This document shows, in pieces, positions 4,846 to 47,110 of a DNA stretch of 64,000 nucleotides (position 1 is the stretch's first letter; the number at the start of each line of letters is the position of its first letter). The notes beneath the pieces were generated by a model. The model saw nothing but the letters and a program-made list of their open reading frames with translations, did no database searches and had not been told where the DNA came from. The position numbers were made by a program, and so were the translations under genes. Origin of the DNA: Escherichia phage YJin-2024a; the sequence record PP534475.1; one strand, given 5' to 3'.

Positions 4846-4848
4846 TTA

Positions 4849-30072: not shown

Positions 30073-30489
30073 TTAATCTACTGCATGGATAAATCTTTTC
30101 CTAACTAGATACATAGTTATTGGGTAAATTGAGTACATAAGTATCGGGGAGAAAAGGGTGAAATAAGCTGTAACTCCCCCAGCTAACATCAAAGGTATTA
30201 ATGCTAGAGTAAGGGCCATAAGAATCATGCCGAATGAAACAGCCAAAGCTATGGATATAGGATTCTCTAGTTCCATCCATAACCAACAATATTTCGTATC
30301 TCTATGGCAATTGCATTTACAAACGCCGAATGAACCCATAATTATATACTCTAGTCCGTGAATAACCTTTATTAATAAGCTATTTCGGGTAGTTAATGCA
30401 AGGATAGTAAAGACTATCATTAAAACGAATACTACTAGACTTATTTTCCAGATACCTAGCAGCATCATAGTGAATAGTTCTGCAAACAT
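30073..30489 (-). CDS. multi-pass membrane protein (138 aa)
   Basis: Four hydrophobic segments. Confidence 0.5.
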   Translation of the reverse strand: MFAELFTMMLLGIWKISLVVFVLMIVFTILALTTRNSLLIKVIHGLEYIIMGSFGVCKCNCHRDTKYCWLWMELENPISIALAVSFGMILMALTLALIPLMLAGGVTAYFTLFSPILMYSIYPITMYLVRKRFIHAVD

Positions 30490-30566: not shown

Positions 30567-30980
30567 TTAAACTAGTTCGACATGACCGCCATCATAGGTA
30601 CCACGTTTTATTTCATCGTGATAGTCTCCCGAAGCATTCCAATCAGCACCAAAACGAAGTTTAATGCCTAGTTCTTTACCTGCTTGTTCAAAAGCCTTTT
30701 TAACTGCCCAAAATGCTTCTAAGTCATTCCAATCAATCTTGCCATTAATGTATGGGGCAAAATCAAGAGCATCTCCAGTAATATGCTTGCTTTTACTAGG
30801 ATCTTTTAAAAATGAAGTACCGTTAGCAATATTCTGGGCACTTTGTGCTACTGTACGAATACCCTGTACGATCGTGAAATCATATGGAGATAATTCTAAA
30901 GCTCTACGAGCTACTTTTTGTAGCTCTGGCTTAACGGTAGCTAATTGTTTTTCGCTATTTTTACCAAATTTAAAACTCAT
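30567..30980 (-). CDS. endolysin, L-alanyl-D-glutamate peptidase (M15-type)
   Basis: 137 aa; HITGDALDF and DGGHVEL zinc-peptidase motifs. Confidence 0.8.
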   Translation of the reverse strand: MSFKFGKNSEKQLATVKPELQKVARRALELSPYDFTIVQGIRTVAQSAQNIANGTSFLKDPSKSKHITGDALDFAPYINGKIDWNDLEAFWAVKKAFEQAGKELGIKLRFGADWNASGDYHDEIKRGTYDGGHVELV

Positions 30981-31633
30981 ATTGATCTACCTAAAGATCT
31001 CTGTTGTGGGGAACAGAGCTTTGTTAAATACTCGTTAAATTTCTCAGAATCGGCTGCATCTACAGGATTATCTTTCCAAGCAATACCAATATATCCAGCA
31101 TAGATATTGTTTAGATTGAAATACGGACAAGTGTATATGTAATTAAAAGTAACGTTCTTAAACGCAGGTATATTTAACCCCATGTATTTATTTACTTTTA
31201 CACTTAAATCCGATGCGTAGTTAAAGCCGTCTAAGTGACGTCTATATAGCTCAGACGTCTTATTTACCGCTTTATCGGCCAAGTCAGCCCTATCTAATTG
31301 CGCATTGCTTTCCCATGCAATAATGTTAGAATAATCATTAATGGCATCGGGTTTATACTTGACTACAAAAACAGCATCCGCACCCGTTTGGGAAAAAAGC
31401 ACCATGCTCTTTTCTCTAGCTACGTTAGGAAAATTACTTATCCTTTGAGTTTGAACATCCTGTAGAACCGCAGACGTGGAGAAAGTCTTTAAGAATGACA
31501 TCACCTCACTAGTATTACTAACAAATAAGAAAATAATGACAGCAACTAAGATAGTTAGCAGACGTTTAAGAAGCGATGCTGGATCTTTCGCTTCTTGGAG
31601 CAGTACCGTTAATAATTGTAAGAACTTTTCCAA
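30977..31633 (-). CDS. holin-like membrane protein
   Basis: 218 aa with TM helix, immediately upstream of and overlapping the endolysin gene; apparent TTG start after GGAGG. Confidence 0.55.
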   Translation of the reverse strand: MEKFLQLLTVLLQEAKDPASLLKRLLTILVAVIIFLFVSNTSEVMSFLKTFSTSAVLQDVQTQRISNFPNVAREKSMVLFSQTGADAVFVVKYKPDAINDYSNIIAWESNAQLDRADLADKAVNKTSELYRRHLDGFNYASDLSVKVNKYMGLNIPAFKNVTFNYIYTCPYFNLNNIYAGYIGIAWKDNPVDAADSEKFNEYLTKLCSPQQRSLGRSI

Positions 31634-31657: not shown

Positions 31658-31686
31658 ATTATACTAATTTTGGAGGAAAATTACAA
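31658..31686 (-). promoter_or_regulatory. early sigma70 promoter upstream of the lysis genes
   Basis: TTGTAA-17-TATAAT on the minus strand. Confidence 0.45.
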
Positions 31687-31789
31687 TGTGTTTTTAAAGA
31701 TCACTTCTGGAGCATAAAATTTTGTCGTTGTCAAGAAGAATTTTAGATAAAAGAAAAGCCAGGGTCGTTAAACCCTGGCTTAAAATTAC

Positions 31790-32389
31790 TTACTCTTCTT
31801 TATGCTCCTCTGATTGAGGTAACTGGGCTTTATTATATTGCTCAGATCGATATTTTGCCAAGATTTCAATACGCTTATGGATTTCTTTGCTATCTAGATA
31901 GATATTTTTGTTGTCTTTTACCATCTCGTCGATTTCGTCTATTGAGAAGAACGGATAGTAGACATCTAGCATCATATCTTCTACGAACTTGTTGTAAGAT
32001 TCATAGGCTTTCTTGATTTCTTGACCTTTCTCGCAGAACCCGCCAGAGAACGTGTGTCCCATTAGCGTAGCATGCGGATGTACTACCCATCCATGACAGG
32101 ATAGGAAAATTGTGCAGTAAGCAGAAGCACTAGGACCAACCAGATGTCCTATAACTGTTCCACGGCAATTAGCAATTAAGTTAGATAACTGTGCAGCAGT
32201 ATCAACATAACCACCTGGACCATTAATCATCAGATTAATTTCGTCGTCCTCATTTGCCTGCATAAGTACCATTGATAAATCACGGTATTCATCCGGCGGG
32301 CCTAATTCTTCATCAAAGAAAAAGGTATACTCATTAGATTGGCGAATGGAGTGAAACAGGTTAGTCTTTTCTTCTTTTTTATTAGTCAT
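31790..32389 (-). CDS. ClpP-like serine protease
   Basis: INGPGG and GPSAS motifs aligning with ClpP INSPGG and GQAAS. Confidence 0.6.
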   Translation of the reverse strand: MTNKKEEKTNLFHSIRQSNEYTFFFDEELGPPDEYRDLSMVLMQANEDDEINLMINGPGGYVDTAAQLSNLIANCRGTVIGHLVGPSASAYCTIFLSCHGWVVHPHATLMGHTFSGGFCEKGQEIKKAYESYNKFVEDMMLDVYYPFFSIDEIDEMVKDNKNIYLDSKEIHKRIEILAKYRSEQYNKAQLPQSEEHKEE

Positions 32390-32401: not shown

Positions 32402-33154
32402 TTATCCAACTAGTGGTTCTAGCTCTAAGTCACAGAAGTTATAAACTTCTAGTTTAAGGTTATTGATACCATCGAATTTATTAACTAATTCGTGAGTAAT
32501 ATATTTTGCAGGAATACCACTTTCAGATGGATGATCTGATTTAATAGTGAACTTCTGCTCAGCGGGTACTACATTTACTATCAAAGAATCCATATCTAAA
32601 TGGTTTGTTTCTCTGAGTAACTCTCCTTCATTGGGGAATCTAACATCTGTTATTACGGCGACATCTGGGTCGTCTTTAGCGATGGATTGCTCCAGAATTA
32701 TGAGCCAAATGCGTTCATGCACCAGCTGCCTTCCTAGCTCTGTTCCTACGAGCTGTAACATTTTTCTCGGAGAAATAAATAAACTATAAAGTCCGTCTTC
32801 TTTACTCTCTGAGATAAGTTGTTGAGGATTAAGATATTTTTCCTCAAAAATAGGCCAAACGTGCGAGAAGTCTTCAAACTTATCGATACCGTACTTAAAC
32901 CACACATCTCTGGCTCGCTCCAATTGAGATTGTGTGACCGTAAACCATTGGTCAATCTCTTTTCCCCTGCGCTCTCCTAGAAACTCTGGAGTTACACCGA
33001 GGATTACGGATGCAAGTTCATAAACGGGCTTAGCAAAACTATAACGACGGGATAAACACGTTGGATACGTGTCATTACACCAATCGATAATTAATTTTGC
33101 AACGGTATCTTTTCCCGAACCAGCTTCACCATGTAAACCGACTAATACTGACAT
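32402..33154 (-). CDS. deoxynucleoside monophosphate kinase
   Basis: P-loop GEAGSGKDT; 250 aa. Confidence 0.7.
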   Translation of the reverse strand: MSVLVGLHGEAGSGKDTVAKLIIDWCNDTYPTCLSRRYSFAKPVYELASVILGVTPEFLGERRGKEIDQWFTVTQSQLERARDVWFKYGIDKFEDFSHVWPIFEEKYLNPQQLISESKEDGLYSLFISPRKMLQLVGTELGRQLVHERIWLIILEQSIAKDDPDVAVITDVRFPNEGELLRETNHLDMDSLIVNVVPAEQKFTIKSDHPSESGIPAKYITHELVNKFDGINNLKLEVYNFCDLELEPLVG

Positions 33155-33507
33155 TAATCTTTCCTATTGTTAATTGGTGGATAATATACTAAACAACGTT
33201 TTTCTTGCAAATCTTGACGATAGAAGCAAACCATACCTGTCAGTCGTGAAATATATGAATATTCTGCCTCACGGCATTTTGCCAACATATTCCAATCTTT
33301 ATATGGTACAACAACTACTACGCCATCTTCTCCATTTGTAGCTAATTTCTTTTCAAACTTAAAGTCAAAGCTACAAGGTTGGAGTCCTTTAGGCCAATCT
33401 ACATGAGCTGTTGGTAACTCATGTGAGGGTTCTGGCTTTATTTCTTGCGCACAGCCTGTGATTGTGATTGCGGCTGCGAGCAGTATTCCACACTTCCAGA
33501 AAGACAT
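33154..33507 (-). CDS. lipoprotein, o-spanin-like
   Basis: Signal peptide with lipobox ITGC; overlaps the 3' end of 33438..33881. Confidence 0.45.
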   Translation of the reverse strand: MSFWKCGILLAAAITITGCAQEIKPEPSHELPTAHVDWPKGLQPCSFDFKFEKKLATNGEDGVVVVVPYKDWNMLAKCREAEYSYISRLTGMVCFYRQDLQEKRCLVYYPPINNRKD

Positions 33508-33881
33508 GCTAATCTCTCCTCAAATTCTTTACTCTGCTTTTTAGCAATTAATGTTACCAATCCAGGCTTTGCAGCTATAATGTCTTGACGACTAAGTGCT
33601 TTATCAAGCTGACTAATCTTTTTGTCTAGATCTGCTTGCGAAATATTATTCATTGTGAAATACTGATTCATTCTAGTCTCACGAAGTTCGCTTTCAGCTT
33701 TCACTTTATTAAGGGAAGTCTCTAGAGAAGAAATCTTTTTAGTAGCTACCGCAAGATCTCCCGCCAAAGTCTCCACTTTATTTACTAAGTGATAAGCACC
33801 GAATCCGATGCCTATCGCTAGACCTGCTCCCAGGATATACCACTTACCTTTCCATAGAGAACCGATAAAGTTTTTTATCAT
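33438..33881 (-). CDS. membrane-anchored coiled-coil protein, i-spanin-like
   Basis: N-terminal TM helix plus long coiled coil; overlaps the downstream lipoprotein gene. Confidence 0.45.
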   Translation of the reverse strand: MIKNFIGSLWKGKWYILGAGLAIGIGFGAYHLVNKVETLAGDLAVATKKISSLETSLNKVKAESELRETRMNQYFTMNNISQADLDKKISQLDKALSRQDIIAAKPGLVTLIAKKQSKEFEERLACLSGSVEYCSQPQSQSQAVRKK

Positions 33882-34558
33882 CTTTTCATATTCCTGAATG
33901 ACGTAACCGTATCAAATCCATGTGCTGCTAGACGGTCTTTATCTGATACAGTAATCATATCAGGCTCGCCCGTCCCTAACACGCCCCAGATATATTGCTC
34001 GATCATCTGGTGCAAACGGTATAAGTTACTTTCAATTTCCTGCCACGGAATACCTGATAGGTGTAGACGCGGATTAGTTATAATCTTGAAGTATTTATTG
34101 CTATCTTTATCATTTGGAACTAATGAATCTAGAACTGCTAGCGGTACTCTTAGCTCAGATAAGGCTTCTTTAGCTTTCGGGGTAACTTCTTCTTGCCACG
34201 ATAAGATCGACTCTTTTGGCTTCCCTCTGTTTATGTCTAGCAAAGAAAACCCTGTTGACCATCCCTTCTCATCTAAAATTTCTAACGCCTTGTCCAGACT
34301 GAAGGTTTTTACTTGGGTATCCAGTACATCAATGTGGTATAACCAGTAAATCTCCCCAGCTAGGAAGAAAGGCAAAATTTTAAAGTAGCCAATCTTCCCC
34401 TCAATACGAGCAATCCTACGTTCTTGCATGATCATATAGTTGCCCTCATCTGGGGCTTTTATTGTTAGCTCTTCAGTTTTACGTTCCCAAACACGATCTG
34501 CGTCAAATAAACTGTTCTGCAAATCATACACATCTACGAATTTAGAGATGATTCTCAT
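33878..34558 (-). CDS. hypothetical protein (226 aa)
   Basis: ORF with PN25-like promoter upstream. Confidence 0.55.
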   Translation of the reverse strand: MRIISKFVDVYDLQNSLFDADRVWERKTEELTIKAPDEGNYMIMQERRIARIEGKIGYFKILPFFLAGEIYWLYHIDVLDTQVKTFSLDKALEILDEKGWSTGFSLLDINRGKPKESILSWQEEVTPKAKEALSELRVPLAVLDSLVPNDKDSNKYFKIITNPRLHLSGIPWQEIESNLYRLHQMIEQYIWGVLGTGEPDMITVSDKDRLAAHGFDTVTSFRNMKR

Positions 34559-34618: not shown

Positions 34619-34712
34619 CTAAAATTTTATTATAAAAATAGCCCAGTCGCAAAAGTGCAGGCTGGGCTTTGTCATTATTTGCTTTTGCTAGTAAGTTGAT
34701 TTAGCATCAATC

Positions 34713-38269: not shown

Positions 38270-38345
38270 TGGTAGTTAGTAGTGGATTTGAACCACTGTA
38301 GTCGCTCCGTATGAAGGAGGTGCATAACCACTCTGCCAACTAACT
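38270..38345 (-). tRNA. tRNA with CAU anticodon (Met or Ile2)
   Basis: T-arm, 7-bp acceptor pairing, CCA encoded; anticodon loop UUCAUAC. Confidence 0.7.
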
Positions 38346-38441
38346 GTTATGTTTTACTAGACTAAGTAAGTATTCTTTATACTCTTTAGACCAACTAGCT
38401 TTTTTAAACTTTCCTGGACGCATAGTCTTAATTCCTAAATT

Positions 38442-38518
38442 TGGTACTCCGGGAGGGATTTAAACCCCCGATCTCTCGGTTATCAGCCGAGTGCTTTAGA
38501 TCGCTAAGCTACCGAAGC
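38442..38518 (-). tRNA. tRNA-Ile (GAU)
   Basis: Acceptor and T-arm pairing, CCA encoded; loop CUGAUAA. Confidence 0.7.
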
Positions 38519-38519
38519 A

Positions 38520-38726
38520 TTAATATTTAATTGCAGAACGTTTACCATTTCTAGGCGCACCTGGAAGTCGTGCACGTTCTGCCATTCTTCGCTTAATCTT
38601 TGAGATATTTTCTAGTGTTTGTTCTTCAGGCTTAATACCTGAAACACTACACCACTGATTACCATCCCATGCGATAATGATCATAACACCATTACCCATA
38701 ATCTTTTCTGTGAAAGTAATTCTCAT
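38520..38726 (-). CDS. hypothetical protein
   Basis: ORF between tRNA genes; start at internal Met. Confidence 0.35.
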   Translation of the reverse strand: MRITFTEKIMGNGVMIIIAWDGNQWCSVSGIKPEEQTLENISKIKRRMAERARLPGAPRNGKRSAIKY

Positions 38727-39019
38727 TATAGCAACTCGTCTAAGCAAGAGGTATATTTAAGTTTACCATCTTTATCTACTTTGATTTCGACTTCCGCTCG
38801 TGGTACTTGACGAACTACACCATGAATCATCTTATAGCGAATGCCTTTAGCTGGTTCACGATCTTTTGGAAATACTTGCTTAACCGTTACTACCTTGAAA
38901 CCCTCACGCGGTGTTAACACTACTACTTGATCACCTTCTTTGATCTTCCAAGAGCTAGGAAATTCATAGGTATAGCGTTGACCACCAGTTTGGAACACAA
39001 CAGAAAGATAACGTTTCAT
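38726..39019 (-). CDS. hypothetical protein (97 aa)
   Basis: ORF with PN25-like promoter upstream. Confidence 0.5.
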   Translation of the reverse strand: MKRYLSVVFQTGGQRYTYEFPSSWKIKEGDQVVVLTPREGFKVVTVKQVFPKDREPAKGIRYKMIHGVVRQVPRAEVEIKVDKDGKLKYTSCLDELL

Positions 39020-39049
39020 TTGGTTTCCCTCTCATTAATTTATATAAAT

Positions 39050-39078
39050 ATTATAACAAGAAATAAGAGAGAAGGCAA
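39050..39078 (-). promoter_or_regulatory. early sigma70 promoter, PN25-like family
   Basis: TTGCCT-17-TATAAT on the minus strand. Confidence 0.5.
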
Positions 39079-39086
39079 ATGAATTT

Positions 39087-39254
39087 TTAATAAAGTTTAG
39101 TCACTTCATAAACTATACTACGAGATTCTTTATTACGTTGTATTAAATTAGCGTATGCTTCTTCAGCTTCATTTTTAGTATTAAAGTCTATAACGTGAGA
39201 GGTATTAGCTCTATTTGATTGGCTATACCAGATAACTACTAGGAGTTTAAACAT
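39087..39254 (-). CDS. hypothetical protein
   Basis: Start moved to the internal Met with AAGGAT RBS to avoid the adjacent tRNA. Confidence 0.35.
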   Translation of the reverse strand: MFKLLVVIWYSQSNRANTSHVIDFNTKNEAEEAYANLIQRNKESRSIVYEVTKLY

Positions 39255-39268
39255 ACTAATCCTTAAAT

Positions 39269-39355
39269 TGGTGCTGGGCACAGGATTCGAACCTGCAACG
39301 GGATTACTCCTCCTGATTACAAATCAGGTGCATTCAACCATTCTGCCAACCCAGC
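39269..39355 (-). tRNA. type II tRNA (long variable arm), anticodon loop UUUGUAA, isotype uncertain
   Basis: 87 nt; 3-bp D stem and 15-nt variable arm; anticodon reads UGU, which is atypical for a type II body. Confidence 0.5.
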
Positions 39356-39520
39356 AGAACCCGTTATTTCAACGGGATTTCTTTTTCAATAACAAGAGAC
39401 TTGTCAGTCATAACTGTCATTGCCATTTGTTGTAGAAATTCAAAGGTGAAGGCTACACGTTCTTCACCAATCTCTACTTCTACACGTTTCTTTTGTTTAT
39501 CGATCTTGACTTTTAGGTTA

Positions 39521-39742
39521 TCAGCCATCTTCGGGTTCTCGTTGCTGCGCTACTTCTAGCCAGTCTGGTAGAAGAAACTTTGTACGAAATTCTTCGTAAG
39601 TTTCTTTGGGATAAAAGCTAAAACCTCCTTTCTCGTCATTCAGGATAACAGAGCCGTCAGTTTGTTCGTATGCTCGGTATGTTTCTCCAATAACAATAAC
39701 TCGTTTATCGGTACTTTTATTACGAAATTCAAAAACGTGCAT
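39521..39742 (-). CDS. hypothetical protein (73 aa)
   Basis: ORF only. Confidence 0.45.
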   Translation of the reverse strand: MHVFEFRNKSTDKRVIVIGETYRAYEQTDGSVILNDEKGGFSFYPKETYEEFRTKFLLPDWLEVAQQREPEDG

Positions 39743-39758
39743 AACGTTTCCTTAAAGT

Positions 39759-39834
39759 TGGAGCGGCTAGAGGGAATCGAACCCTACTCAGCGAGGCTTG
39801 GAAGGCCTGCGACACAACCCGTGTGCTTAACCGC
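39759..39834 (-). tRNA. tRNA-Gly (UCC)
   Basis: Acceptor and T-arm pairing; loop CUUCCAA. Confidence 0.7.
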
Positions 39835-39842
39835 TTATTGTT

Positions 39843-39919
39843 TGGCTGGAGAAGGAGGAATCGAACCTACCATTAACGGAGTCAAAGGCCGTTGTGCTAA
39901 CCGTTACACTACTCTCCAA
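39843..39919 (-). tRNA. tRNA-Gln (UUG)
   Basis: Acceptor and T-arm pairing; loop CUUUGAC. Confidence 0.7.
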
Positions 39920-39924
39920 TTATT

Positions 39925-40000
39925 TGGCTGGAGTGCCTGGGATCGAACCAGGAACCTTCGGAGTCAGAGGCCGACGATCTGCCAATTGATCTACACTCCA
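39925..40000 (-). tRNA. tRNA-Gln (CUG)
   Basis: Perfect acceptor pairing; loop CUCUGAC. Confidence 0.7.
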
Positions 40001-40008
40001 ATAATCCT

Positions 40009-40209
40009 TTACTCTACAGGAACCGTGGCTATTGGTTCTGGTTCTTCTAGACGTTTGCCTTCATGATCTACACGAATAACACCACAACCTTCACAGATTA
40101 CAACAGCACCGTAGCCTTCTTTAACTTCGGCTTCTGTAATCAAACCAGAAAGATCACCAGTATCTTTACCCCACATATCAATGGAGCATTGTTTGCAGAA
40201 ATCAGCCAT
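40009..40209 (-). CDS. zinc-ribbon protein (66 aa)
   Basis: CKQC ... CEGCG cysteine pairs. Confidence 0.45.
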   Translation of the reverse strand: MADFCKQCSIDMWGKDTGDLSGLITEAEVKEGYGAVVICEGCGVIRVDHEGKRLEEPEPIATVPVE

Positions 40210-40234
40210 ATTTTATTTCCTATTTAAGTTAATT

Positions 40235-40311
40235 TGGGGTGGCTAGTGGAATTCGAATCCACATAGGCCTGATTCACAATCAGGATCATTAACCAATTAT
40301 GATATAGCCAC
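40235..40311 (-). tRNA. tRNA-His (GUG)
   Basis: Perfect acceptor and T stems; loop UUGUGAA. Confidence 0.7.
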
Positions 40312-40680
40312 AATTGAAAACTCGCAGGGTTAGCGAAACCTTCCTCAATTAGCATGTTCTAGAATACTAATCAAGTTATCTCCTATTGCACGCAGCTCAA
40401 GACGAGTACGAGTTTTCAATTGTGGCGGCTCTCCGAAACTCTTCTACTCTAGCCTTAGCAGCTTACTCCCGAACGCATGTCGGGAAAGTCTTACTAAGAG
40501 CATCAAATAGCTCCGTTACACTTTGAGCCATAGATGTATCAAGAAGCAGAAGGACTTGAACCTTCACGAGATAGACCATTTATCTCAGCCGCTTTATGAG
40601 GTATGTTGTAGAGAGTGGATGTTCTCTATAAACCTTTTAGGCAGCCCCGTCTACCAATTCCGGCATACTTCAAGAATTTC

Positions 40681-40863
40681 TTATAAACCAGCAGAAGCCT
40701 CATTTAAAGCATCAACAATAGCCTGTTGTTGCGTCCATCCTCTACCAGTAGAATTAACATGTGGAAGATATACTTCCCAATAACCGTCCTCTAGTAAGGT
40801 TATTTGTGCACTAAACTCTGTGCCATCAGTTAGTGTAACCTTCACAGTTTTTGTTAAAGACAT
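40681..40863 (-). CDS. hypothetical protein (60 aa)
   Basis: ORF only. Confidence 0.4.
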   Translation of the reverse strand: MSLTKTVKVTLTDGTEFSAQITLLEDGYWEVYLPHVNSTGRGWTQQQAIVDALNEASAGL

Positions 40864-40879
40864 ATATTATCCTATAAGT

Positions 40880-40969
40880 TGGCAGAAGATAATGGAGTCG
40901 AACCATCACCGTATCGCTACAGCGGGCTGGTTTTCAAGACCAGTTACGTACCACTACGTCCTATCTTCT
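40880..40969 (-). tRNA. tRNA-Ser (UGA), type II
   Basis: 90 nt; perfect acceptor pairing; loop CUUGAAA. Confidence 0.7.
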
Positions 40970-40975
40970 ATTGTT

Positions 40976-41066
40976 TGGCGGAAGAGGAGAGATTTGAACT
41001 CTCAAGCCGTTTTACCAGTCAGCCACTTTCCAAGCGGTTTTCGTCGCCAATTCGATTTGCTCTTCC
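40976..41066 (-). tRNA. tRNA-Ser (GGA), type II
   Basis: 91 nt; perfect acceptor and T stems; loop UUGGAAA. Confidence 0.6.
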
Positions 41067-41178
41067 AATAATAAGATGATGCCTCTATCACACCAGGCAG
41101 TTACGCCTCGCTGGGATTCGAACCCATTAAAACAGCTCAACCGAGATAGTAGGTTTAATTTACTCTGACCATCAAATT

Positions 41179-41255
41179 TGGTGCGTGACAAGGGATTCGA
41201 ACCCTCAAAACCCGACTTCTAAGGACGGTATGTATGCCAATTCCATCAATCACGC
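41179..41255 (-). tRNA. tRNA, anticodon UAG (Leu-like) with short variable arm
   Basis: Acceptor and T-arm pairing; GAATTGG D-loop; loop CUUAGAA. Confidence 0.55.
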
Positions 41256-41260
41256 ATGTT

Positions 41261-41339
41261 TGGTGGAGAATAACGGAATCGAACCGTTCTGATGTCCTCG
41301 GTGCAAGCGAGGTGTCCACTCCATGCAGACCCATTCCCC
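41261..41339 (-). tRNA. tRNA-Ala (UGC)
   Basis: Acceptor and T-arm pairing; loop CUUGCAC. Confidence 0.65.
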
Positions 41340-41671
41340 AAATTCTTTAGTTTACTAAGGCTATTAGCTCGGCGTAACTACAGCACCTTCGCTTCAAGCG
41401 GAAGGAACCGCGTCATCTCGCAAACCCGATACACTATTCAGTTGCCACTGAATCTAGTGGACTAATCTAGAACTTCTCCCGAATCGTAGGGATCGTGCTT
41501 TTTGGCAGCCAGTCCTAGGTCGAGCTAATACCTTAGTGAACTAAATTGATGGATACCAGACTAATTTTGCTACGACGTTTATCCTGGGGATCTCTTTTTC
41601 GGTAGCTCTGCTAGTGTAGACGTCATACACCTGGTATCTAGGCAGCTATTTTCGCATCAATTTATATAAAT

Positions 41672-41700
41672 ATAATAACAAGAAATTAAGCATCAAGCAA
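41672..41700 (-). promoter_or_regulatory. early sigma70 promoter feeding a tRNA operon through a ~330 nt non-coding leader
   Basis: TTGCTT-17-TATTAT on the minus strand; no ORF downstream before the tRNAs. Confidence 0.45.
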
Positions 41701-41718
41701 CTACGTTTTTCTTGAAAT

Positions 41719-41797
41719 TGGTAGATCGCCTGGGACTCGAACCCAGAACCTTCCGATTAAAAGTCGGATGCTACTAAACCTATTGAGCTAGCGATCT
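41719..41797 (-). tRNA. tRNA-Lys (UUU)
   Basis: Perfect acceptor, T and anticodon stems; loop CUUUUAA. Confidence 0.7.
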
Positions 41798-41986
41798 ATT
41801 AGTAACCATTGTATACTTCTTTAATAGAGTGAACTTTCAGGTAATGGTGATTAGTACTAAACTCTACCATTACTTCATCCCAATTTTTACCATAATGGGC
41901 AAGTAAGGATTTTGATGTATTCTTACCTAACCGTTTGTCACTTACTACTAATCGAAATACTTTCATTTCGAAATCCTCTATTAAAA

Positions 41987-42064
41987 TGGAAGCGGGTGCA
42001 GGAATCGAACCTACCTCTTTCTAGCTTATGAGACTAGCGATCTCTACCAGAGATCTAACCCGCA
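41987..42064 (-). tRNA. tRNA with CAU anticodon (second copy; Met/fMet/Ile2)
   Basis: Loop CUCAUAA; 1-72 position unpaired, as in initiator-type tRNAs. Confidence 0.6.
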
Positions 42065-42070
42065 ATTGTT

Positions 42071-42148
42071 TGGTCTCCGTGAGAGGATTTGAACCCCCGA
42101 CCCTATCGCCCCAAACGAAACGCTCTGGCCAAACTGAGCTACACGGAG
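42071..42148 (-). tRNA. tRNA-Pro (UGG)
   Basis: Perfect acceptor pairing; loop UUUGGGG. Confidence 0.65.
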
Positions 42149-42150
42149 AA

Positions 42151-42310
42151 TATTATTTCTTCAACCACAACAAAGATAAGCCCAGCATACTAAAGCCGCT
42201 AACTAATCCGATACATTTTTCTTCTATAGTAAAAGTATCTAGATTAAATGCTGTTATAGCTATTGGCATACACCATAATGCCATAAAAACTTGAGCTATC
42301 TTGTGTTTCA
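42151..42310 (-). CDS. small membrane peptide (53 aa)
   Basis: GAAGGAAAG RBS; hydrophobic; behind a PN25-like promoter; not in the ORF track. Confidence 0.35.
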
Positions 42311-42343
42311 TTTTGCTTTCCTTCTCTTCACTTTATAAAATAT

Positions 42344-42372
42344 ATTATACAGAGAATTAAGCAGAATAGCAA
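42344..42372 (-). promoter_or_regulatory. early sigma70 promoter, PN25-like family
   Basis: TTGCTA-17-TATAAT on the minus strand. Confidence 0.55.
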
Positions 42373-42764
42373 ATGAATTTTTAATAAATTTACTTATTGT
42401 GTAGGCCACCTGGAGGCTATGAACCCCACGGCTGACAAAGAAGTTTGCGAGACCTCTCTTAAATGCCAGAATAGACCCGCCGATCTATCGGAACCTACAT
42501 AATAAGTAAACTTTATAGTGTCATTCTAGACAGGACTCGAACCTGTTATCACTTGTGCGGACTTACGAGAACCATTCTTTCACTCGAATCGAACGAGCTT
42601 CTGCCCTAGCCAAGCTGGTTTCCCCATCAACCACGCTAGAATGTTTGATTGTTTTCAGTGCAAGAGTCCGAGTCTTGGACACGACCGCTTCGCAAGTACA
42701 TAGGCAGCTTATCATGAGTCAGCACTTCCGAATTGCTAGCTCCGTGTTCTGCACTGAAATTTTG

Positions 42765-43112
42765 TTAATTTAATAGTAAAGTACGATCTACTTCACCATT
42801 AATTGTTCGGCATTCTTCTGGGATTGCTGGTGTAGTCTTATATTCCCACCATTCAGAACCATCATATTCACCACGTTCTAACCAAGTTCCGTCAGTAAAC
42901 CATACATTACCATAAAGCAATTGCCCACCGAAACCCGAGTCATATTTAAAGTCTAGATTATTTAGAAAATCTTCAATATCTTTTTCTGTATAACCTACGG
43001 GCAATACCCAAACTTCTTTGTCTCCATAATAACCGAATTCTATCTTAATACACTTAACTTCAGAATTAGTATTCTTTAGGGCAAGTAACAACTCTTCTTT
43101 AGCATTAATCAT
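42765..43112 (-). CDS. hypothetical protein (115 aa)
   Basis: ORF only. Confidence 0.5.
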   Translation of the reverse strand: MINAKEELLLALKNTNSEVKCIKIEFGYYGDKEVWVLPVGYTEKDIEDFLNNLDFKYDSGFGGQLLYGNVWFTDGTWLERGEYDGSEWWEYKTTPAIPEECRTINGEVDRTLLLN

Positions 43113-43138
43113 AGCATATTTCTCGTGCTAGTTTAATT

Positions 43139-43215
43139 TGGCGCGACCGATGGGATTCGAACCCACATTCTCTCCCGTGACAGGGGAGTACCATTACCAA
43201 GCCAGCCCCGGTCGC
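43139..43215 (-). tRNA. tRNA-Asp (GUC)
   Basis: Perfect acceptor pairing; loop CUGUCAC. Confidence 0.75.
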
Positions 43216-43224
43216 ATAATTCAT

Positions 43225-43410
43225 TTACTCAGCTTTGAGTTTTTCAATAGCTGCATTAAGTTCCTTAAGAAACTCTTTTCGTACATTAAGACGATTAAGA
43301 CTTACTAGTATATCATGTTTAAGTTCTTCGATGTATTTCTTCTCAACTTCAATATTGTTGATAGTGCTATCACGATGAACTTCTAGCTGCGCAATTACAT
43401 TCTTGGACAT
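43225..43410 (-). CDS. hypothetical coiled-coil protein (61 aa)
   Basis: ORF only. Confidence 0.4.
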   Translation of the reverse strand: MSKNVIAQLEVHRDSTINNIEVEKKYIEELKHDILVSLNRLNVRKEFLKELNAAIEKLKAE

Positions 43411-43512
43411 GCTTGTTTCCTCAGTTATTAATGAAAATGGTATCTGTGGCTGAATTCGATGTCAGCAATGATAGCTGGTTGGCTACCGGTTTACTTAACT
43501 CTACACAGAATT

Positions 43513-43595
43513 TGGCGGGCCGTGTAGGATTCGAACCTACGTTGTCTTTCGACATGGATTAACAGTCCACCGCCAAACCGCTTGGCTAACGACCC
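43513..43595 (-). tRNA. tRNA with GUU anticodon (Asn) on a body carrying a 13-nt variable hairpin
   Basis: 83 nt; acceptor and T-arm pairing; loop CUGUUAA; extra arm GTC-GAAA-GAC. Confidence 0.55.
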
Positions 43596-43747
43596 TAAAT
43601 TTATATTGCTGACTAGGATTTTCACCTAGACGGAGTTAGCACCGTAGCGTGTAGCGGCATACCTCTCCAAACCGTGCCTCATCTTTCAATTACGGAGACA
43701 GTGTTCCTACGCGTGCCTGAATTGTTTTAACAATTCTTTCAGCAAAT

Positions 43748-43823
43748 TGGACGACCGCATGAGATTTGAACTCACATAAAAAGGATTTGCAATCCTTCGC
43801 CTAAGCCATTCAGCCAACGGTCG
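43748..43823 (-). tRNA. tRNA-Cys (GCA)
   Basis: Acceptor pairing; perfect anticodon stem; loop UUGCAAA. Confidence 0.7.
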
Positions 43824-43871
43824 ATTTATCTTATTCTATCATGTTGCTTCTCCAGTTCAATTTATGTAATT

Positions 43872-43900
43872 ATTATACAGAACTTTTGGAAACTAAGCAA
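43872..43900 (-). promoter_or_regulatory. early sigma70 promoter upstream of tRNA-Cys
   Basis: TTGCTT-17-TATAAT on the minus strand. Confidence 0.5.
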
Positions 43901-44180
43901 CTACATTTTTTAAGAATTTGATGCCTTTCTTTTTCTTCTTATATTTCCACGTTAATGGATTCTGTCGATTGTGAACGCTTGAGATCTTTGTCTCGTCAAA
44001 GTTCTTCAATATCATGTAATCACAAGATAATTGTTCTAATGGAATGTGATCACCGTCAAAAGCGTATACATAAGGCTGTTGACTAGCACGATAATGATAG
44101 ACTTTGTTAATTCTACGTTTCAGCGACTTATCCGCGCAGTAAATAAAGAAGTTTTCAGGATGCATCAGCAGCTCCTTCAA
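43893..44180 (-). CDS. hypothetical basic protein (95 aa)
   Basis: ORF only. Confidence 0.45.
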   Translation of the reverse strand: MKELLMHPENFFIYCADKSLKRRINKVYHYRASQQPYVYAFDGDHIPLEQLSCDYMILKNFDETKISSVHNRQNPLTWKYKKKKKGIKFLKNVVA

Positions 44181-44263
44181 ATTGGTGCACCCTGTTCGTA
44201 TCGAACGAACCTCTCAAGCTCTTCAGGCAAGCGCTAATCCATCTCAGCTAAAGGTGCAAATTT

Positions 44264-44340
44264 TGGCAAACCTACTAGGACTCGAACCTAGACCGTACGG
44301 TTTTGGAGACCGACATGCTGTCCAGTAACACTCTAGGAAT
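44264..44340 (-). tRNA. tRNA-like, anticodon loop CUCCAAA (Trp CCA) but acceptor stem does not pair
   Basis: Perfect T-arm and anticodon arm; CCA encoded; no complementary 5' acceptor strand found. Confidence 0.4.
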
Positions 44341-44348
44341 GCAGGAAT

Positions 44349-44425
44349 TGGCGTCCTGTGCGGGGATCGAACCCGCAAATCCTACCTTGAAAGGGTAGTG
44401 ACTTTACCAGTTTGTCTAACAGGAC
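44349..44425 (-). tRNA. tRNA-Glu (UUC)
   Basis: Perfect acceptor, T and anticodon stems; loop CUUUCAA. Confidence 0.75.
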
Positions 44426-44431
44426 TTAAAT

Positions 44432-44519
44432 TGGTGGGGAAAGATGGAGTCGAACCACCCGAGTCGCAATGACAACTGATTTACAGTCAGCTCTGCTACC
44501 ACTTACAGAATATTTCCCC
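44432..44519 (-). tRNA. tRNA-Tyr (GUA), type II
   Basis: 88 nt; perfect acceptor pairing; loop CUGUAAA. Confidence 0.7.
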
Positions 44520-44650
44520 ATATTTAGAAGTATTCAAAAAATTCTAATTTAAACACTTTTAAATATGTTTCCAAATTAGATAACTATTATACCAAGTTTT
44601 AAGGCACTGAGCAAGTCAAATTTTAAAGAACTTGCTCAGTGCTGTATTAG

Positions 44651-44926
44651 TTAGTCGAACTTAGGAGCGACAGTTAAGGAGAACGGAAGTTCGAAAACTT
44701 CTTCGCCCTCATCACTAACAGTAATTACACGACCTTTAAGTTCAGACATTGAAATATCAATATCAGCTTTTGCATCTGGAGCCATGCCAGCTTCAACACA
44801 TTTAGCTTTAATTTCCGGCAGAAGTTCTACATCGTAGAAATAAAGCCATTCAATCTCACCTTCCCAGCCTTCCCAGGATTTACAGATTGCACTTTCAATA
44901 CCAGTTGCTATAACACGATTTTGCAT
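44651..44926 (-). CDS. hypothetical acidic protein (91 aa)
   Basis: ORF with promoter upstream. Confidence 0.5.
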   Translation of the reverse strand: MQNRVIATGIESAICKSWEGWEGEIEWLYFYDVELLPEIKAKCVEAGMAPDAKADIDISMSELKGRVITVSDEGEEVFELPFSLTVAPKFD

Positions 44927-44956
44927 TCGTTAACTCCTTCATCAATTTATATAACT

Positions 44957-44986
44957 ATTATACCAGAAATTTAAAGCAAAAGGCAA
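44957..44986 (-). promoter_or_regulatory. early sigma70 promoter, PN25-like family
   Basis: TTGCCT-18-TATAAT on the minus strand. Confidence 0.45.
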
Positions 44987-45016
44987 GTACATTTTTAAAA
45001 ATTCTGTTTGGAGGAG

Positions 45017-45223
45017 CTAAACTCCAGATTCTTCAGCCAAGTCTAGACTAATAAGAGATATAGCCATAATTGCCGCTCCATGTTCTTTTTCTCCAGTCTC
45101 TTTAGCTAGAGTTATAATGTCAAGAAATTGCTTATGAAAATCTGCAACCTCTTGAGTTATACCTGCCTCAGCAATCATACCTTTAAGCATGAAACGTTGT
45201 GCGGTAATTTCAGGATTAGCCAT
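45017..45223 (-). CDS. hypothetical protein (68 aa)
   Basis: ORF only. Confidence 0.4.
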   Translation of the reverse strand: MANPEITAQRFMLKGMIAEAGITQEVADFHKQFLDIITLAKETGEKEHGAAIMAISLISLDLAEESGV

Positions 45224-45398
45224 GTTGTTTCTCCAGTTTCATCTTTAATAGTCTACAAATAAAATCAATGTCTTCATCCGTGCCTAGATCTCTATCTTCA
45301 AGAGTTGCCTTGAAGTTTTTAGTCAATTCCATAAGGATGACTTCCCTAGAACGACGTGTTGGCGGAGGTGGATGTCTATACATCTTATTTCCTTAATT

Positions 45399-45475
45399 TG
45401 GTAGGGGTGGTGGGATTCGAACCCACAAAACCTGAATTTTAAGTCCAGTACCTATGCCAATTCGATTACACCCCC
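45399..45475 (-). tRNA. tRNA, anticodon UAA (Leu-like) with short variable arm
   Basis: Acceptor and T-arm pairing; GAATTGG D-loop; loop CUUAAAA. Confidence 0.55.
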
Positions 45476-45576
45476 GTGTAATCAGTTTATTAGTTGATAC
45501 ATATTATAGCCTAGTGAAAATCCTACTACTAGTCCCACAAACCAACCAATATAATAATCTTTTAGTTTCACAGGTA

Positions 45577-45762
45577 TTATCCTCGTTCAATATCTAGGGA
45601 AATACCACAGTTAGGATTAATACCTGTACCACTGCAATTTGGGCAAACCCAGATATTGCAAAAAGTATCTCCTGCTTCTGCATCAGAACTTTCACCAATT
45701 CCCCTACACTCAGGGCAGACACATTCTTCTAGCTCTTGCTTGAGTTCTTGAAACTTAGACAT
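45577..45762 (-). CDS. small zinc-finger protein with two CxxCxGxG motifs (DnaJ-type zinc centre)
   Basis: CPECRGIG and CPNCSGTG. Confidence 0.5.
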   Translation of the reverse strand: MSKFQELKQELEECVCPECRGIGESSDAEAGDTFCNIWVCPNCSGTGINPNCGISLDIERG

Positions 45763-45770
45763 ATAGTCTC

Positions 45771-46172
45771 CTAATTAAGTTTTTCAAAACGACCTAGAGA
45801 ATCTCTAGTCATCTTATTTAAGATTTTTCCCATATTCTGCTTTCTTGTGAATAATTCTAGGTTAGGTAAAGCATTATTAGACTTATCATCATCTTTGTGC
45901 TCTATTTCATAGCCTTCCGGTATTTCACCGTTGAAAGCCATCCATACGAGTCTGTGCACATATTCATTTTTACCTAGTCCCTTATTGCAAATTTTCACCT
46001 GAAAATATCCAGATTTACCATTGCAACGTGGAGATAATACCTTTCCTTTTATAGTTCTAGTGTACTCGCTATATTGATTTCGTTGTGTTATTATTCTATC
46101 CTTAGTTTCTATTGTACCATTTAAGTGTACAATTAAAATAACACCAAAGTACTCAAATTCAACCTTTTCCAT
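45771..46172 (-). CDS. HNH homing endonuclease
   Basis: EIEHKDDDKSNNALPNLELFTRKQN HNH-family motif. Confidence 0.65.
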   Translation of the reverse strand: MEKVEFEYFGVILIVHLNGTIETKDRIITQRNQYSEYTRTIKGKVLSPRCNGKSGYFQVKICNKGLGKNEYVHRLVWMAFNGEIPEGYEIEHKDDDKSNNALPNLELFTRKQNMGKILNKMTRDSLGRFEKLN

Positions 46173-46186
46173 ACGTAATACCTAAT

Positions 46187-46261
46187 TGGTGGGTCGGAGG
46201 AGAATCTAACTCCTACTCATTAGCTTATGAGGCCACCGCTTTAACTTTAAGCTACCGACCC
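46187..46261 (-). tRNA. tRNA-like with non-canonical anticodon loop and T-loop
   Basis: Perfect acceptor and T stems, CCA encoded, but a 6-nt anticodon loop between perfect 5-bp stems and a TTAGATT T-loop. Confidence 0.4.
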
Positions 46262-46267
46262 TATGTT

Positions 46268-46361
46268 TGGAGGAAGATGCCAGACTCGAACTGGCACACC
46301 GTGTTTCCACAGTTACTGGCTGTTTAGCAAACAGCTCCCTTACCTTTAGGGTTAATCTTCC
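46268..46361 (-). tRNA. tRNA-Ser (GCU), type II
   Basis: 94 nt; perfect acceptor and T stems; loop UUGCUAA. Confidence 0.65.
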
Positions 46362-46382
46362 AAATTTATAAGATATATTATA

Positions 46383-46844: not shown

Positions 46845-46874
46845 ATTTGGTTCCTCTCTCAAATTTATAGATAT

Positions 46875-46903
46875 ATTATACAGAGAATTTAGCATTCAAG
46901 CAA
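46875..46903 (-). promoter_or_regulatory. early sigma70 promoter, PN25-like family
   Basis: TTGCTT-17-TATAAT on the minus strand. Confidence 0.55.
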
Positions 46904-47048: not shown

Positions 47049-47110
47049 ATATGTTATGGATGAGTGATCAAAGAGACACACATTTTCTATATACTAGGAG
47101 GTGTCAAAAA

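What the first reader, a model, noticed from the sequence alone, without database searches (positions are those of the whole stretch)
33154..33881. Overlapping spanin-like gene pair located away from holin and endolysin
33438..33881 encodes a protein with an N-terminal TM helix and a long coiled coil (i-spanin-like), and its 3' end overlaps 33154..33507, a lipoprotein (lipobox ITGC, o-spanin-like). The pair sits about 2.5 kb from the holin/endolysin cassette at 30.5-31.6 kb, so the lysis functions would be split across loci.
Basis: inference. Interest (0 to 1): 0.4.

Follow-up and report, generated by a model that had tools for sequence, protein, structure and literature searches.

The report
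Known T5-type overlapping spanin gene pair
These two overlapping genes are the already catalogued spanin pair of T5-like phages, which breaks the host outer membrane in the last step of lysis; their position about 1.5 kb from the holin and endolysin genes is normal for this phage family.

Summary
On the minus strand, 33438..33881 encodes a 147-aa protein with an N-terminal membrane helix followed by heptad-patterned helix. 33154..33507 encodes a 117-aa lipoprotein (lipobox ITGC, Cys19, Ala at +2). The two genes overlap by 70 nt in different frames. The window is a T5-like phage; this stretch is 100% identical to Salmonella phage vB_SenS_PHB06. The proteins are 88% and 96% identical to T5.045 and T5.044, which RefSeq annotates as "Rz-like spanin". 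They hit PHROG families phrog_739 and phrog_812, as do T4 PseT.3 and PseT.2, a pair shown experimentally to replace lambda Rz/Rz1. The two cysteines essential in T4 PseT.2 are conserved here (Cys94, Cys105). Kongari et al. 2018 already list a "T5 family" of overlapped spanins with a 70-bp overlap. The gene order i-spanin, o-spanin, dNMP kinase, Clp-like protease, terminator, promoter, holin, endolysin holds in all four Demerecviridae lineages compared. The "split" lysis functions are therefore a family trait, and T4 scatters its lysis genes even more. Verdict: real, correctly interpreted, already known, low interest. No functional test of a T5-family pair turned up in the library searched.

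The parts
33438..33881 (-). i-spanin gene (147 aa), orthologue of T5.045 and remote homologue of T4 PseT.3
   Evidence: ORF. phrog_739 'Rz-like spanin', 1.5e-37. 88% identical to T5.045. 27% identical to T4 PseT.3, E 3e-6. T4 PseT.3 hits the same phrog_739.
33783..33839 (-). Predicted N-terminal transmembrane helix of the i-spanin (residues 15-33, YILGAGLAIGIGFGAYHLV), with K3, K11 and K13 on its N-terminal side (N-in, C-out)
   Evidence: Highest hydropathy window (KD19 1.55) and lowest Hessa-scale sum. Helical in the AlphaFold model. The hydropathy score is just under the usual 1.6 cut-off because the stretch is glycine-rich.
33699..33776 (-). Heptad-repeat (coiled-coil-like) part of the periplasmic helix, residues 36-61
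   Evidence: 8 of 8 a/d positions hydrophobic. Heptad score 0.85, reached by 0 of 500 shuffles. pLDDT 88-93 within helix 3-77.
33480..33506 (-). C-terminal two-cysteine motif of the i-spanin (C126-x7-C134, CLSGSVEYC), encoded inside the overlap with the o-spanin signal sequence
   Evidence: Present in all seven Demerecviridae i-spanins aligned and absent from T4 PseT.3 (alignment A1). Cysteine positions.
33154..33507 (-). o-spanin gene (117 aa precursor, 99 aa mature lipoprotein), orthologue of T5.044 and remote homologue of T4 PseT.2
   Evidence: ORF. phrog_812 'Rz-like spanin', 3.4e-29. 96% identical to T5.044. 29% identical to T4 PseT.2, E 4e-7. T4 PseT.2 hits the same phrog_812.
33451..33462 (-). 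Lipobox I16-T17-G18-C19 of the o-spanin. Cys19 is the predicted lipidated residue, and Ala20 at +2 predicts outer-membrane sorting
   Evidence: Pattern match. G18 and C19 are invariant in all 8 homologues, including T4 (alignment A2).
33193..33228 (-). C-terminal cysteine pair of the o-spanin (Cys94 ... Cys105, CFYRQDLQEKRC), equivalent to T4 PseT.2 Cys87 and Cys98
   Evidence: Invariant columns C94, Y96, E102, C105. Pairwise alignment with T4 PseT.2. Both cysteines are essential for T4 spanin function (PMC6139136).
33438..33507 (-). 70-nt dual-coding overlap: i-spanin residues 125-147 and o-spanin residues 1-23, in different frames
   Evidence: The same 70-bp overlap is reported for T5 (PMC6139136).
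33878..34558 (-). Upstream 226-aa gene of unknown function (T5.047 homologue). Its stop overlaps the i-spanin start (ATGA), and it is probably the first gene of the transcription unit that carries the spanins
   Evidence: phrog_4243, unknown function. Promoter-like site at 34652..34624. T5 has an annotated promoter at the equivalent place.
32402..33154 (-). dNMP kinase gene, immediately downstream. Its start overlaps the o-spanin stop by 1 nt (TAATG)
   Evidence: Pfam DNMK, 2e-11. T5 dnk occupies the same position.
31790..32389 (-). Clp-like protease gene, the last gene before the terminator
   Evidence: Pfam CLP_protease, 4.2e-08. phrog_1827.
31756..31781 (-). Intrinsic-terminator-like hairpin (11-bp stem, then a T run) that separates the spanin-containing unit from the holin/endolysin unit
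   Evidence: Conserved with the terminator annotated in T5.
31658..31686 (-). Sigma-70-like promoter (TTGTAA-17-TATAAT) in front of the holin gene
   Evidence: Conserved with the promoter annotated in T5.
30977..31633 (-). T-type holin gene (218 aa, TTG start)
   Evidence: Pfam Phage_holin_T, 4.8e-113.
30567..30980 (-). Endolysin gene (137 aa, M15-type peptidase, T5 Lys homologue)
   Evidence: phrog_465 endolysin, 2.2e-54. Pfam Peptidase_M15_4, just below its cut-off.

Best explanation
This is the two-component spanin of a T5-like phage (Demerecviridae, Tequintavirus).

Inferred mechanism, by homology with T4 and by the lambda Rz/Rz1 model:
- The 147-aa i-spanin is anchored in the inner membrane by its N-terminal helix and extends a largely helical, partly coiled-coil domain into the periplasm.
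- The 117-aa o-spanin is exported, lipidated at Cys19 and sorted by Lol to the inner leaflet of the outer membrane.
- The C-terminal regions of the two proteins bind each other, forming a complex that spans the periplasm through the peptidoglycan mesh.
- Disulfide bonds covalently stabilise the complex. The cysteines available are o-spanin Cys94/Cys105 and probably i-spanin Cys126/Cys134.
- The T-type holin releases the M15 endolysin. Once the wall is degraded, the complexes are free to move and change conformation, and they disrupt the outer membrane, probably by fusing it with the inner membrane. This completes lysis.

The pair is transcribed with a gene of unknown function, the dNMP kinase gene and a Clp-like protease gene. 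That unit is separate from the holin/endolysin unit just downstream.

Shown here: gene structure, targeting signals, homology, conserved residues and conserved gene order. Inferred: localisation, complex formation, disulfides and outer-membrane disruption.
For: - ORFs and the 70-nt out-of-frame overlap.
- Lipobox with Ala at +2, and a single N-terminal hydrophobic helix with lysines on its N-terminal side.
- Heptad pattern not reached by any of 500 shuffles, and a long helix in the AlphaFold model.
- PHROG 'Rz-like spanin' families phrog_739 (1.5e-37) and phrog_812 (3.4e-29). T4 PseT.3 and PseT.2 hit the same two families at 1.3e-37 and 3.5e-43.
- Direct pairwise similarity to the T4 proteins, E 3e-6 and 4e-7.
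- pseT.3/pseT.2 complemented lambda RzamRz1am, and both PseT.2 cysteines (87, 98) were essential (PMC6139136). These align with invariant Cys94 and Cys105 here.
- 88% and 96% identity to T5.045 and T5.044, annotated Rz-like spanin.
- The T5 spanin family with a 70-bp overlap is catalogued (PMC6139136).
- The same pair is annotated i-spanin/o-spanin in HildyBeyeler, NR01, VAC35 and PR1.
- Lipobox, TMD and pairing are retained in homologues only 24-43% identical, from Sugarlandvirus, Priunavirus and Pantoea phage AAS21.
- The window holds only one other credible lipoprotein, a Cor/Llp-like protein next to the receptor-binding protein. It has no i-spanin-like partner.
Against: - I found no direct experiment on any T5-family spanin in the searchable library. 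Function rests on homology to T4 at 27-29% identity and on signals.
- Pfam and NCBIfam have no model that matches either protein.
- The TM segment scores just under the classical Kyte-Doolittle threshold (1.55 against 1.6) because it is glycine-rich.
- The o-spanin AlphaFold model has low confidence (mean pLDDT 47.8), so its fold is not established.
- The genes sit in an operon with nucleotide-metabolism and protease genes, which gives no contextual support for a role in lysis.
Confidence: 0.93

Rival explanations
1. The lipoprotein is not a spanin component. It would be a lytic-conversion or superinfection-exclusion lipoprotein like T5 Llp or Cor, or another envelope effector. The TM/coiled-coil protein would be an unrelated bitopic membrane protein, and the overlap would be mere gene packing.
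For: T5-like phages do encode exclusion lipoproteins, and one is in this window at 10766..11032 (phrog_1119). The pair is not next to the holin/endolysin genes. The i-spanin gives a weak, sub-threshold NCBIfam hit to FtsL (20.9 bits against a cut-off of 50), which shows that this topology is not unique to spanins.
Against: Both proteins are homologous to the functionally validated T4 PseT.3/PseT.2 pair and fall in the same PHROGs. The cysteines essential in T4 are invariant here. The two genes stay together as a pair across distant Demerecviridae. The Cor/Llp-like function is already filled by a different gene next to the receptor-binding protein. The FtsL hit is far below its cut-off and reflects only a TM helix followed by a coiled coil.
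Confidence: 0.03
2. The pair is a spanin by descent but is dispensable or inactive in this phage. Outer-membrane disruption would be achieved another way, for example by a disruptin-like peptide or by shear.
For: No T5-family spanin has been tested as far as I could find. Under laboratory shaking, spanin defects are masked in the absence of divalent cations (established knowledge from lambda Rz/Rz1).
Against: Both ORFs are intact in hundreds of T5-like genomes: 434 of 445 records cover at least 80% of the stretch, with 520 and 548 near-full-length protein matches. The o-spanin is 96% identical to T5's while the surrounding DNA is about 88-94% identical. Lipobox, TMD and cysteines are kept at 24-43% identity. 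This is the signature of purifying selection on a working pair.
Confidence: 0.03
3. One or both ORFs are chance reading frames and not genes.
For: The o-spanin gene starts inside another gene in a different frame, the kind of ORF that gene callers often miss. Several public records leave it unannotated or truncated.
Against: PHROG E-values of 1e-37 and 3e-29. Protein-level conservation down to T4. A Shine-Dalgarno-like GAGGAGAG lies 6 nt upstream of the o-spanin ATG.
Confidence: 0.005

Closest known systems
Phage T5 spanins T5.045 (i-spanin) and T5.044 (o-spanin): the 'T5 family' of overlapped two-component spanins in Kongari et al. 2018 (PMC6139136)
   Same: 88% and 96% amino-acid identity, the same lengths (147 and 117 aa), the same 70-nt overlap, the same neighbours (T5.047 homologue upstream; dnk, Clp-like protease, terminator, promoter, holin and lys downstream).
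   Different: Only point substitutions. T5 itself has the homing endonuclease gene hegF between T5.047 and T5.045, which is absent here.
Phage T4 PseT.3 / PseT.2 spanins (experimentally validated)
   Same: Same PHROG families and detectable pairwise homology. Shared features: the AKPGL motif with an invariant Pro in the i-spanin; the lipobox; the WP motif; the C-terminal C-x10-C pair in the o-spanin. Both pairs are located away from the holin and endolysin genes (PMC6139136).
   Different: The T4 genes have the 'separated' architecture (a 4-nt junction only), whereas these overlap by 70 nt. T4 PseT.3 (117 aa) has no periplasmic cysteine and lacks the C-terminal C-x7-C extension present here. 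The T4 o-spanin has 2 periplasmic cysteines and this one has 4 (Cys45 and Cys78 in addition). Identity is only 27-29%.
Lambda Rz / Rz1 (prototype two-component spanin)
   Same: The same functional design: a type II inner-membrane protein with a helical periplasmic domain, plus an outer-membrane lipoprotein encoded in a different frame of partly the same DNA, with periplasmic cysteines.
   Different: No detectable sequence relationship (no Pfam hit to any family). Rz1 is fully embedded in Rz, is short and proline-rich and has no predicted secondary structure. This o-spanin has a 99-aa mature form, 7% proline and predicted strands and a helix. The lambda genes lie in the lysis cassette next to S and R.
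Separated T5-family variants (Shivani, phiR2-01, NR01, IrisVonRoten)
   Same: Orthologous spanin proteins with the same cysteines and lipobox.
   Different: In those phages a homing-endonuclease gene of about 700 bp is inserted between the two spanin genes and abolishes the overlap. The window has the uninterrupted, overlapped form.

Membership tests
Two-component spanin (functional class, Rz/Rz1-like) | i-spanin: a single N-terminal TMD (N-in, C-out) followed by a periplasmic, largely alpha-helical/coiled-coil domain | tested here: met
   Hydrophobic stretch at residues 15-33 with K3/K11/K13 upstream. Heptad score reached by 0 of 500 shuffles. AlphaFold helices 3-77 and 82-97.
Two-component spanin (functional class, Rz/Rz1-like) | o-spanin: signal peptidase II signal with a lipobox Cys and no Lol-avoidance Asp at +2 (outer-membrane lipoprotein) | tested here: met
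   LLAAAITITGC, Cys19, Ala20. G18 and C19 invariant in 8 homologues. Actual lipidation and sorting were not tested.
Two-component spanin (functional class, Rz/Rz1-like) | The o-spanin gene is embedded in, overlapped with or immediately after the i-spanin gene | tested here: met
   70-nt overlap in a different frame: the 'overlapped' architecture.
Two-component spanin (functional class, Rz/Rz1-like) | At least one periplasmic cysteine available for intermolecular disulfide bonds | tested here: met
   i-spanin C126 and C134; mature o-spanin C45, C78, C94 and C105. Disulfide formation itself cannot be tested here.
Two-component spanin (functional class, Rz/Rz1-like) | Required for outer-membrane disruption; complements lambda Rz/Rz1 defects | not testable with these tools
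   Needs an experiment. It has been done for the T4 homologues (PMC6139136). I found no such test for a T5-family pair.
T5 spanin family (Kongari et al. 2018) | Sequence similarity to T5 i-spanin and o-spanin over the full length | tested here: met
   88% over 147 aa, E 2e-98; 96% over 117 aa, E 9e-88.
T5 spanin family (Kongari et al. 2018) | Overlapped architecture with a 70-bp overlap (the majority form of the family) | tested here: met
   70 nt, against the 70 bp reported for T5.
T4 PseT.3/PseT.2 superfamily (phrog_739 / phrog_812) | A significant match to the same profile families as the T4 proteins | tested here: met
   Window proteins 1.5e-37 and 3.4e-29. T4 proteins 1.3e-37 and 3.5e-43.
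T4 PseT.3/PseT.2 superfamily (phrog_739 / phrog_812) | The two C-terminal o-spanin cysteines that are essential in T4 (C87, C98) | tested here: met
   They align with invariant C94 and C105 (essentiality from PMC6139136).
Lambda Rz / Rz1 sequence families (Pfam Phage_lysis / Rz1) | A match to the Pfam models | tested here: not met
   No Pfam family at E <= 0.01 for either protein. The pair is analogous to lambda Rz/Rz1 and is not a sequence-family member.
Unimolecular spanin (T1 gp11 type) | One protein with both an N-terminal lipobox and a C-terminal TMD | tested here: not met
   The lipoprotein has no C-terminal hydrophobic stretch; its only hydrophobic window is the signal peptide.

The most novel reading that the evidence does not exclude
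The T5-family spanin may work with a different covalent architecture from the two systems studied so far. Its i-spanin carries a C-terminal C-x7-C motif that the T4 homologue lacks, and that motif is encoded in the same 70 nt as the o-spanin signal peptide. Its o-spanin carries a second cysteine pair, Cys45/Cys78, that is present or absent as a pair across the lineages compared. Six periplasmic cysteines could allow a heterotypic i-o disulfide, or an intramolecular clamp, in place of the purely homotypic links of lambda and T4. In addition, the pair is transcribed with early nucleotide-metabolism genes and not with the holin. The complexes may therefore be assembled long before lysis and might have an earlier, non-lytic role in the envelope.
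Probability: 0.1. Interest if true: 0.3.

Novelty: already known. Interest (0 to 1): 0.06.

Why it matters
It matters little beyond correct annotation. The identical public record (vB_SenS_PHB06) and many other T5-like genomes still label one or both genes 'hypothetical protein', truncate them or give them the wrong spanin label. A clean statement of coordinates, signals and homology is therefore useful for annotation. The pair is a natural example of a dual-coding overlap in which a cysteine motif of one protein and the lipoprotein signal of its partner share the same DNA, but this has been described. Direct experimental confirmation for a T5-family spanin still appears to be missing and would be simple to obtain.

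Tried and rejected
- Pfam and NCBIfam scans of both proteins gave nothing usable. The only result was sub-threshold hits such as FtsL at 20.9 bits against a cut-off of 50, which reflects a TM helix followed by a coiled coil.
I ran single-sequence predictions instead. The i-spanin model is informative for secondary structure only (pLDDT 65.6). The o-spanin model has low confidence (47.8), so I ran no fold search on either.
- Literature searches for 'T5.044/T5.045/T5p044/T5p045' and for T5 with spanin and transcriptome terms found no functional or expression study of these genes.
- I considered that a second o-spanin candidate might sit next to the endolysin. A window-wide lipobox scan found only one other credible lipoprotein (10766..11032). 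It is Cor/Llp-like and lies next to the receptor-binding protein. The remaining hits were short ORFs antisense to or inside other genes.
- I did not run the large protein-database searches (search for homologous proteins, the search of protein representatives). The phage collection, the PHROGs and the literature had already settled the identification.
Full report
**What is in the sequence**

On the minus strand, 33438..33881 is an ATG-initiated ORF of 147 aa and 33154..33507 is an ATG-initiated ORF of 117 aa. They share 70 nt (33438..33507) and are read in different frames.

The 117-aa product begins MSFWKCGILLAAAITITGC|AQE. This fits the lipoprotein signal pattern, with the lipobox ITGC at residues 16-19, Cys19 as the lipidated residue and Ala at +2, so there is no Lol-avoidance Asp. 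A GAGGAGAG Shine-Dalgarno-like sequence lies 6 nt upstream of its ATG, inside the first gene.

The 147-aa product has a single hydrophobic stretch at residues 15-33 (YILGAGLAIGIGFGAYHLV), with three lysines on its N-terminal side. Residues 36-60 have hydrophobic residues at all eight a/d heptad positions, a score reached by none of 500 shuffles of the periplasmic part. A single-sequence AlphaFold model puts residues 3-77 in one continuous helix (pLDDT about 90 over residues 41-70) and residues 82-97 in a second helix. The one qualification is that only about four heptads are strongly coiled-coil-like.

**Where the window comes from**

The stretch 33000..34000 is 100% identical to Salmonella phage vB_SenS_PHB06. 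It has megablast matches in 445 phage records, almost all Salmonella or Escherichia T5-like phages. The window is therefore a Tequintavirus-type genome (Demerecviridae).

**Identity of the pair**

- Both proteins match PHROG families described as 'Rz-like spanin': phrog_739 at 1.5e-37 and phrog_812 at 3.4e-29.
- In the T5 RefSeq record, the genes at the same place (T5.045 and T5.044) have the same lengths and are annotated 'Rz-like spanin'. Their notes point to T4 and RB69 PseT proteins.
- The window proteins are 88% and 96% identical to T5.045 and T5.044.
- Several closely related records annotate them as i-spanin and o-spanin, for example HildyBeyeler, NR01 and IrisVonRoten.
- Kongari et al. 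2018 list a 'T5' i-spanin family and a 'T5' o-spanin family of ten members each. They state that most members have the overlapped architecture and that 'the T5 spanins overlap by 70 bp' (PMC6139136). That is exactly the overlap measured here.

**Link to an experimentally tested system**

I fetched T4 pseT.3 and pseT.2 and compared them directly.

- The i-spanin aligns with PseT.3 at 27% identity (E 3e-6), including the motif A(A/H)KPGLV.
- The o-spanin aligns with PseT.2 at 29% identity (E 4e-7), from the signal peptide to the C-terminal motif C(F/Y)YRQ(D/E)L(Q/K)E(K/D)(R/K)C.
- The T4 proteins hit the same two PHROGs at 1.3e-37 and 3.5e-43.
- Kongari et al. showed that pseT.3/pseT.2 complement a lambda RzamRz1am lysogen, and that both PseT.2 cysteines (87 and 98) are essential.
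- In an alignment of eight o-spanins (window, T5, HildyBeyeler, NR01, Klebsiella VAC35, Providencia PR1, Pantoea AAS21, T4) the invariant columns are M1, K5, G18, C19, W38, P39, D71, C94, Y96, E102 and C105. They include the lipobox Gly-Cys and the two cysteines equivalent to T4 C87 and C98.
- In the i-spanin alignment Pro106 is invariant. The C-terminal C-x7-C motif (C126, C134) is present in all Demerecviridae members but absent from T4 PseT.3, which ends just before it.
- The extra o-spanin pair Cys45/Cys78 is present in Tequintavirus, Sugarlandvirus and AAS21. Both are absent from PR1 and T4. This suggests, by inference only, that the two bond to each other.

**Genomic context and the 'split' lysis functions**

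Read 5' to 3' on the minus strand, the order is:

1. A 226-aa gene of unknown function (34558..33878), whose stop overlaps the i-spanin start as ATGA.
2. The i-spanin gene.
3. The o-spanin gene, whose stop overlaps the dNMP kinase start as TAATG.
4. The dNMP kinase gene (33154..32402).
5. A Clp-like protease gene (32389..31790).
6. A strong terminator-like hairpin (31781..31756).
7. A promoter-like site, TTGTAA-17-TATAAT (31686..31658).
8. The T-type holin gene (31633..30977; Pfam Phage_holin_T, 4.8e-113).
9. The M15-type endolysin gene (30980..30567).

The hairpin and the promoter are conserved base for base with the elements annotated as terminator and promoter in T5. A promoter-like site at 34652..34624 corresponds to the T5 promoter annotated upstream of T5.047.

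The spanin genes are therefore very probably in a different transcription unit from the holin and endolysin genes. The edge-to-edge distance is 1,521 nt.

The same order (i-spanin, o-spanin, dNMP kinase, Clp-like protease, holin, endolysin) is found in HildyBeyeler, T5, NR01, Klebsiella phage VAC35 (Sugarlandvirus), Providencia phage PR1 (Priunavirus) and Pantoea phage AAS21. In the last three, the spanins are only 24-43% identical to those of the window. The arrangement is thus an old, family-wide trait. [quoted passage not shown] Split lysis functions are normal for these large virulent phages.

**Mechanism**

- Shown here: the two genes, their targeting signals, their homology to validated spanins, the conservation of functionally critical residues and the conserved pairing.
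- Inferred from the T4 and lambda work: inner-membrane anchoring of the i-spanin; lipidation and Lol-dependent outer-membrane sorting of the o-spanin; C-terminal i-o interaction across the periplasm; disulfide stabilisation; and, after the holin-released endolysin has degraded the peptidoglycan, disruption of the outer membrane, probably by fusion with the inner membrane.

I put 0.93 on this.

**Rivals**

- A non-spanin lipoprotein such as Llp or Cor. A different gene in the window (10766..11032, phrog_1119, next to the receptor-binding protein) already fits that role, and the homology to PseT.2 argues against it.
- A decayed or dispensable pair. Intact conservation in hundreds of genomes argues against this.
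- Chance ORFs. The profile E-values exclude this.

**Limits**

- Neither Pfam nor NCBIfam has a model for these proteins.
- The o-spanin structure prediction has low confidence (pLDDT 47.8). It shows strands at 50-55 and 62-69, a helix at 72-85 and strands at 91-97 and 102-109. This at most resembles the beta-alpha-beta organisation predicted for PseT.2.
- I found no published functional test of a T5-family spanin in the library searched.

**Verdict**

The feature is already known: it is catalogued in the literature and annotated in RefSeq T5. The only mildly open points are the role of the six periplasmic cysteines and the early-operon expression. Interest 0.06.

Noticed in passing
window 10766..11032 (+), next to 8893..10680 (-): An 88-aa lipoprotein (MKKFVIALVAAVMLSGC|APA) matches phrog_1119, 'Cor superinfection exclusion protein' (1.7e-26). 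It is divergently placed next to the 595-aa receptor-binding tail protein (phrog_4815), the same arrangement as T5 llp/oad. It is the only other credible lipoprotein in the window.
   Followed up: partly
window 1..15100: Late tail and receptor-binding genes (up to about 10.7 kb) are followed directly by pre-early-type genes: a 258-aa protein (12016..12792, phrog_415) and a 586-aa A1-like 'DNA transfer protein' (13289..15049, phrog_1745). In T5 these lie in the terminal repeat. The window therefore seems to cross the junction between the right end and the left end of the genome, as in an assembly with a collapsed terminal repeat or a circular permutation.
   Followed up: partly
window 38270..50492 (-): A large tRNA cluster. 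ARAGORN finds 23 tRNAs on the minus strand. Rfam finds one more weak tRNA match at 50421..50492 that ARAGORN does not report, and Rfam does not list the ARAGORN tRNA-Ala at 41261..41339. Several ARAGORN calls are unusually long for their type (for example tRNA-Thr 87 nt and tRNA-Asn 83 nt). No Rfam family covers the T5 'stable RNAs' annotated in this region of T5.
   Followed up: no
window 30073..30489 (-): A 138-aa protein lies immediately downstream of the endolysin gene. Its T5.039 counterpart is annotated as having four transmembrane domains. It matches phrog_5944 (unknown function, 6.7e-83) and is conserved in the same place in T5 and HildyBeyeler. Its position next to the lysis genes raises the untested possibility of a lysis-related role.
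   Followed up: no
window 33878..34558 (-): The 226-aa protein translationally coupled (ATGA) to the i-spanin is of unknown function (phrog_4243; only a sub-threshold winged-helix Pfam hit). Some public records label its homologue 'DNA polymerase III subunit epsilon', and nothing here supports that label.
   Followed up: partly
L004 3501..3830; L005 3097..3549; public records: There are annotation errors in public records. The identical phage PHB06 labels both spanins 'hypothetical protein'. Klebsiella phage VAC35 annotates a truncated 51-aa 'O-spanin' (3675..3830), while the full ORF with the lipobox starts at 3501. Providencia phage PR1 starts its i-spanin at 3208, which removes the transmembrane helix present in the longer ORF from 3097. 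Several records label the o-spanin 'i-spanin' or 'endonuclease'.
   Followed up: partly
L007 1996..2694 (Salmonella phage NR01); also IrisVonRoten: In some close relatives a gene of about 700 nt, annotated as a homing endonuclease in IrisVonRoten and in the RefSeq copy of NR01, sits between the i-spanin and o-spanin genes. This turns the overlapped pair into a separated one while keeping the i-spanin C-x7-C motif and the o-spanin lipobox. It has been described for Shivani and phiR2-01.
   Followed up: partly
window 31631..31633 (-): The T-type holin gene starts with TTG, preceded by GAGGAGG, in the window and in T5. The window has a 1-nt deletion just upstream of the start relative to T5 and HildyBeyeler.
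   Followed up: no
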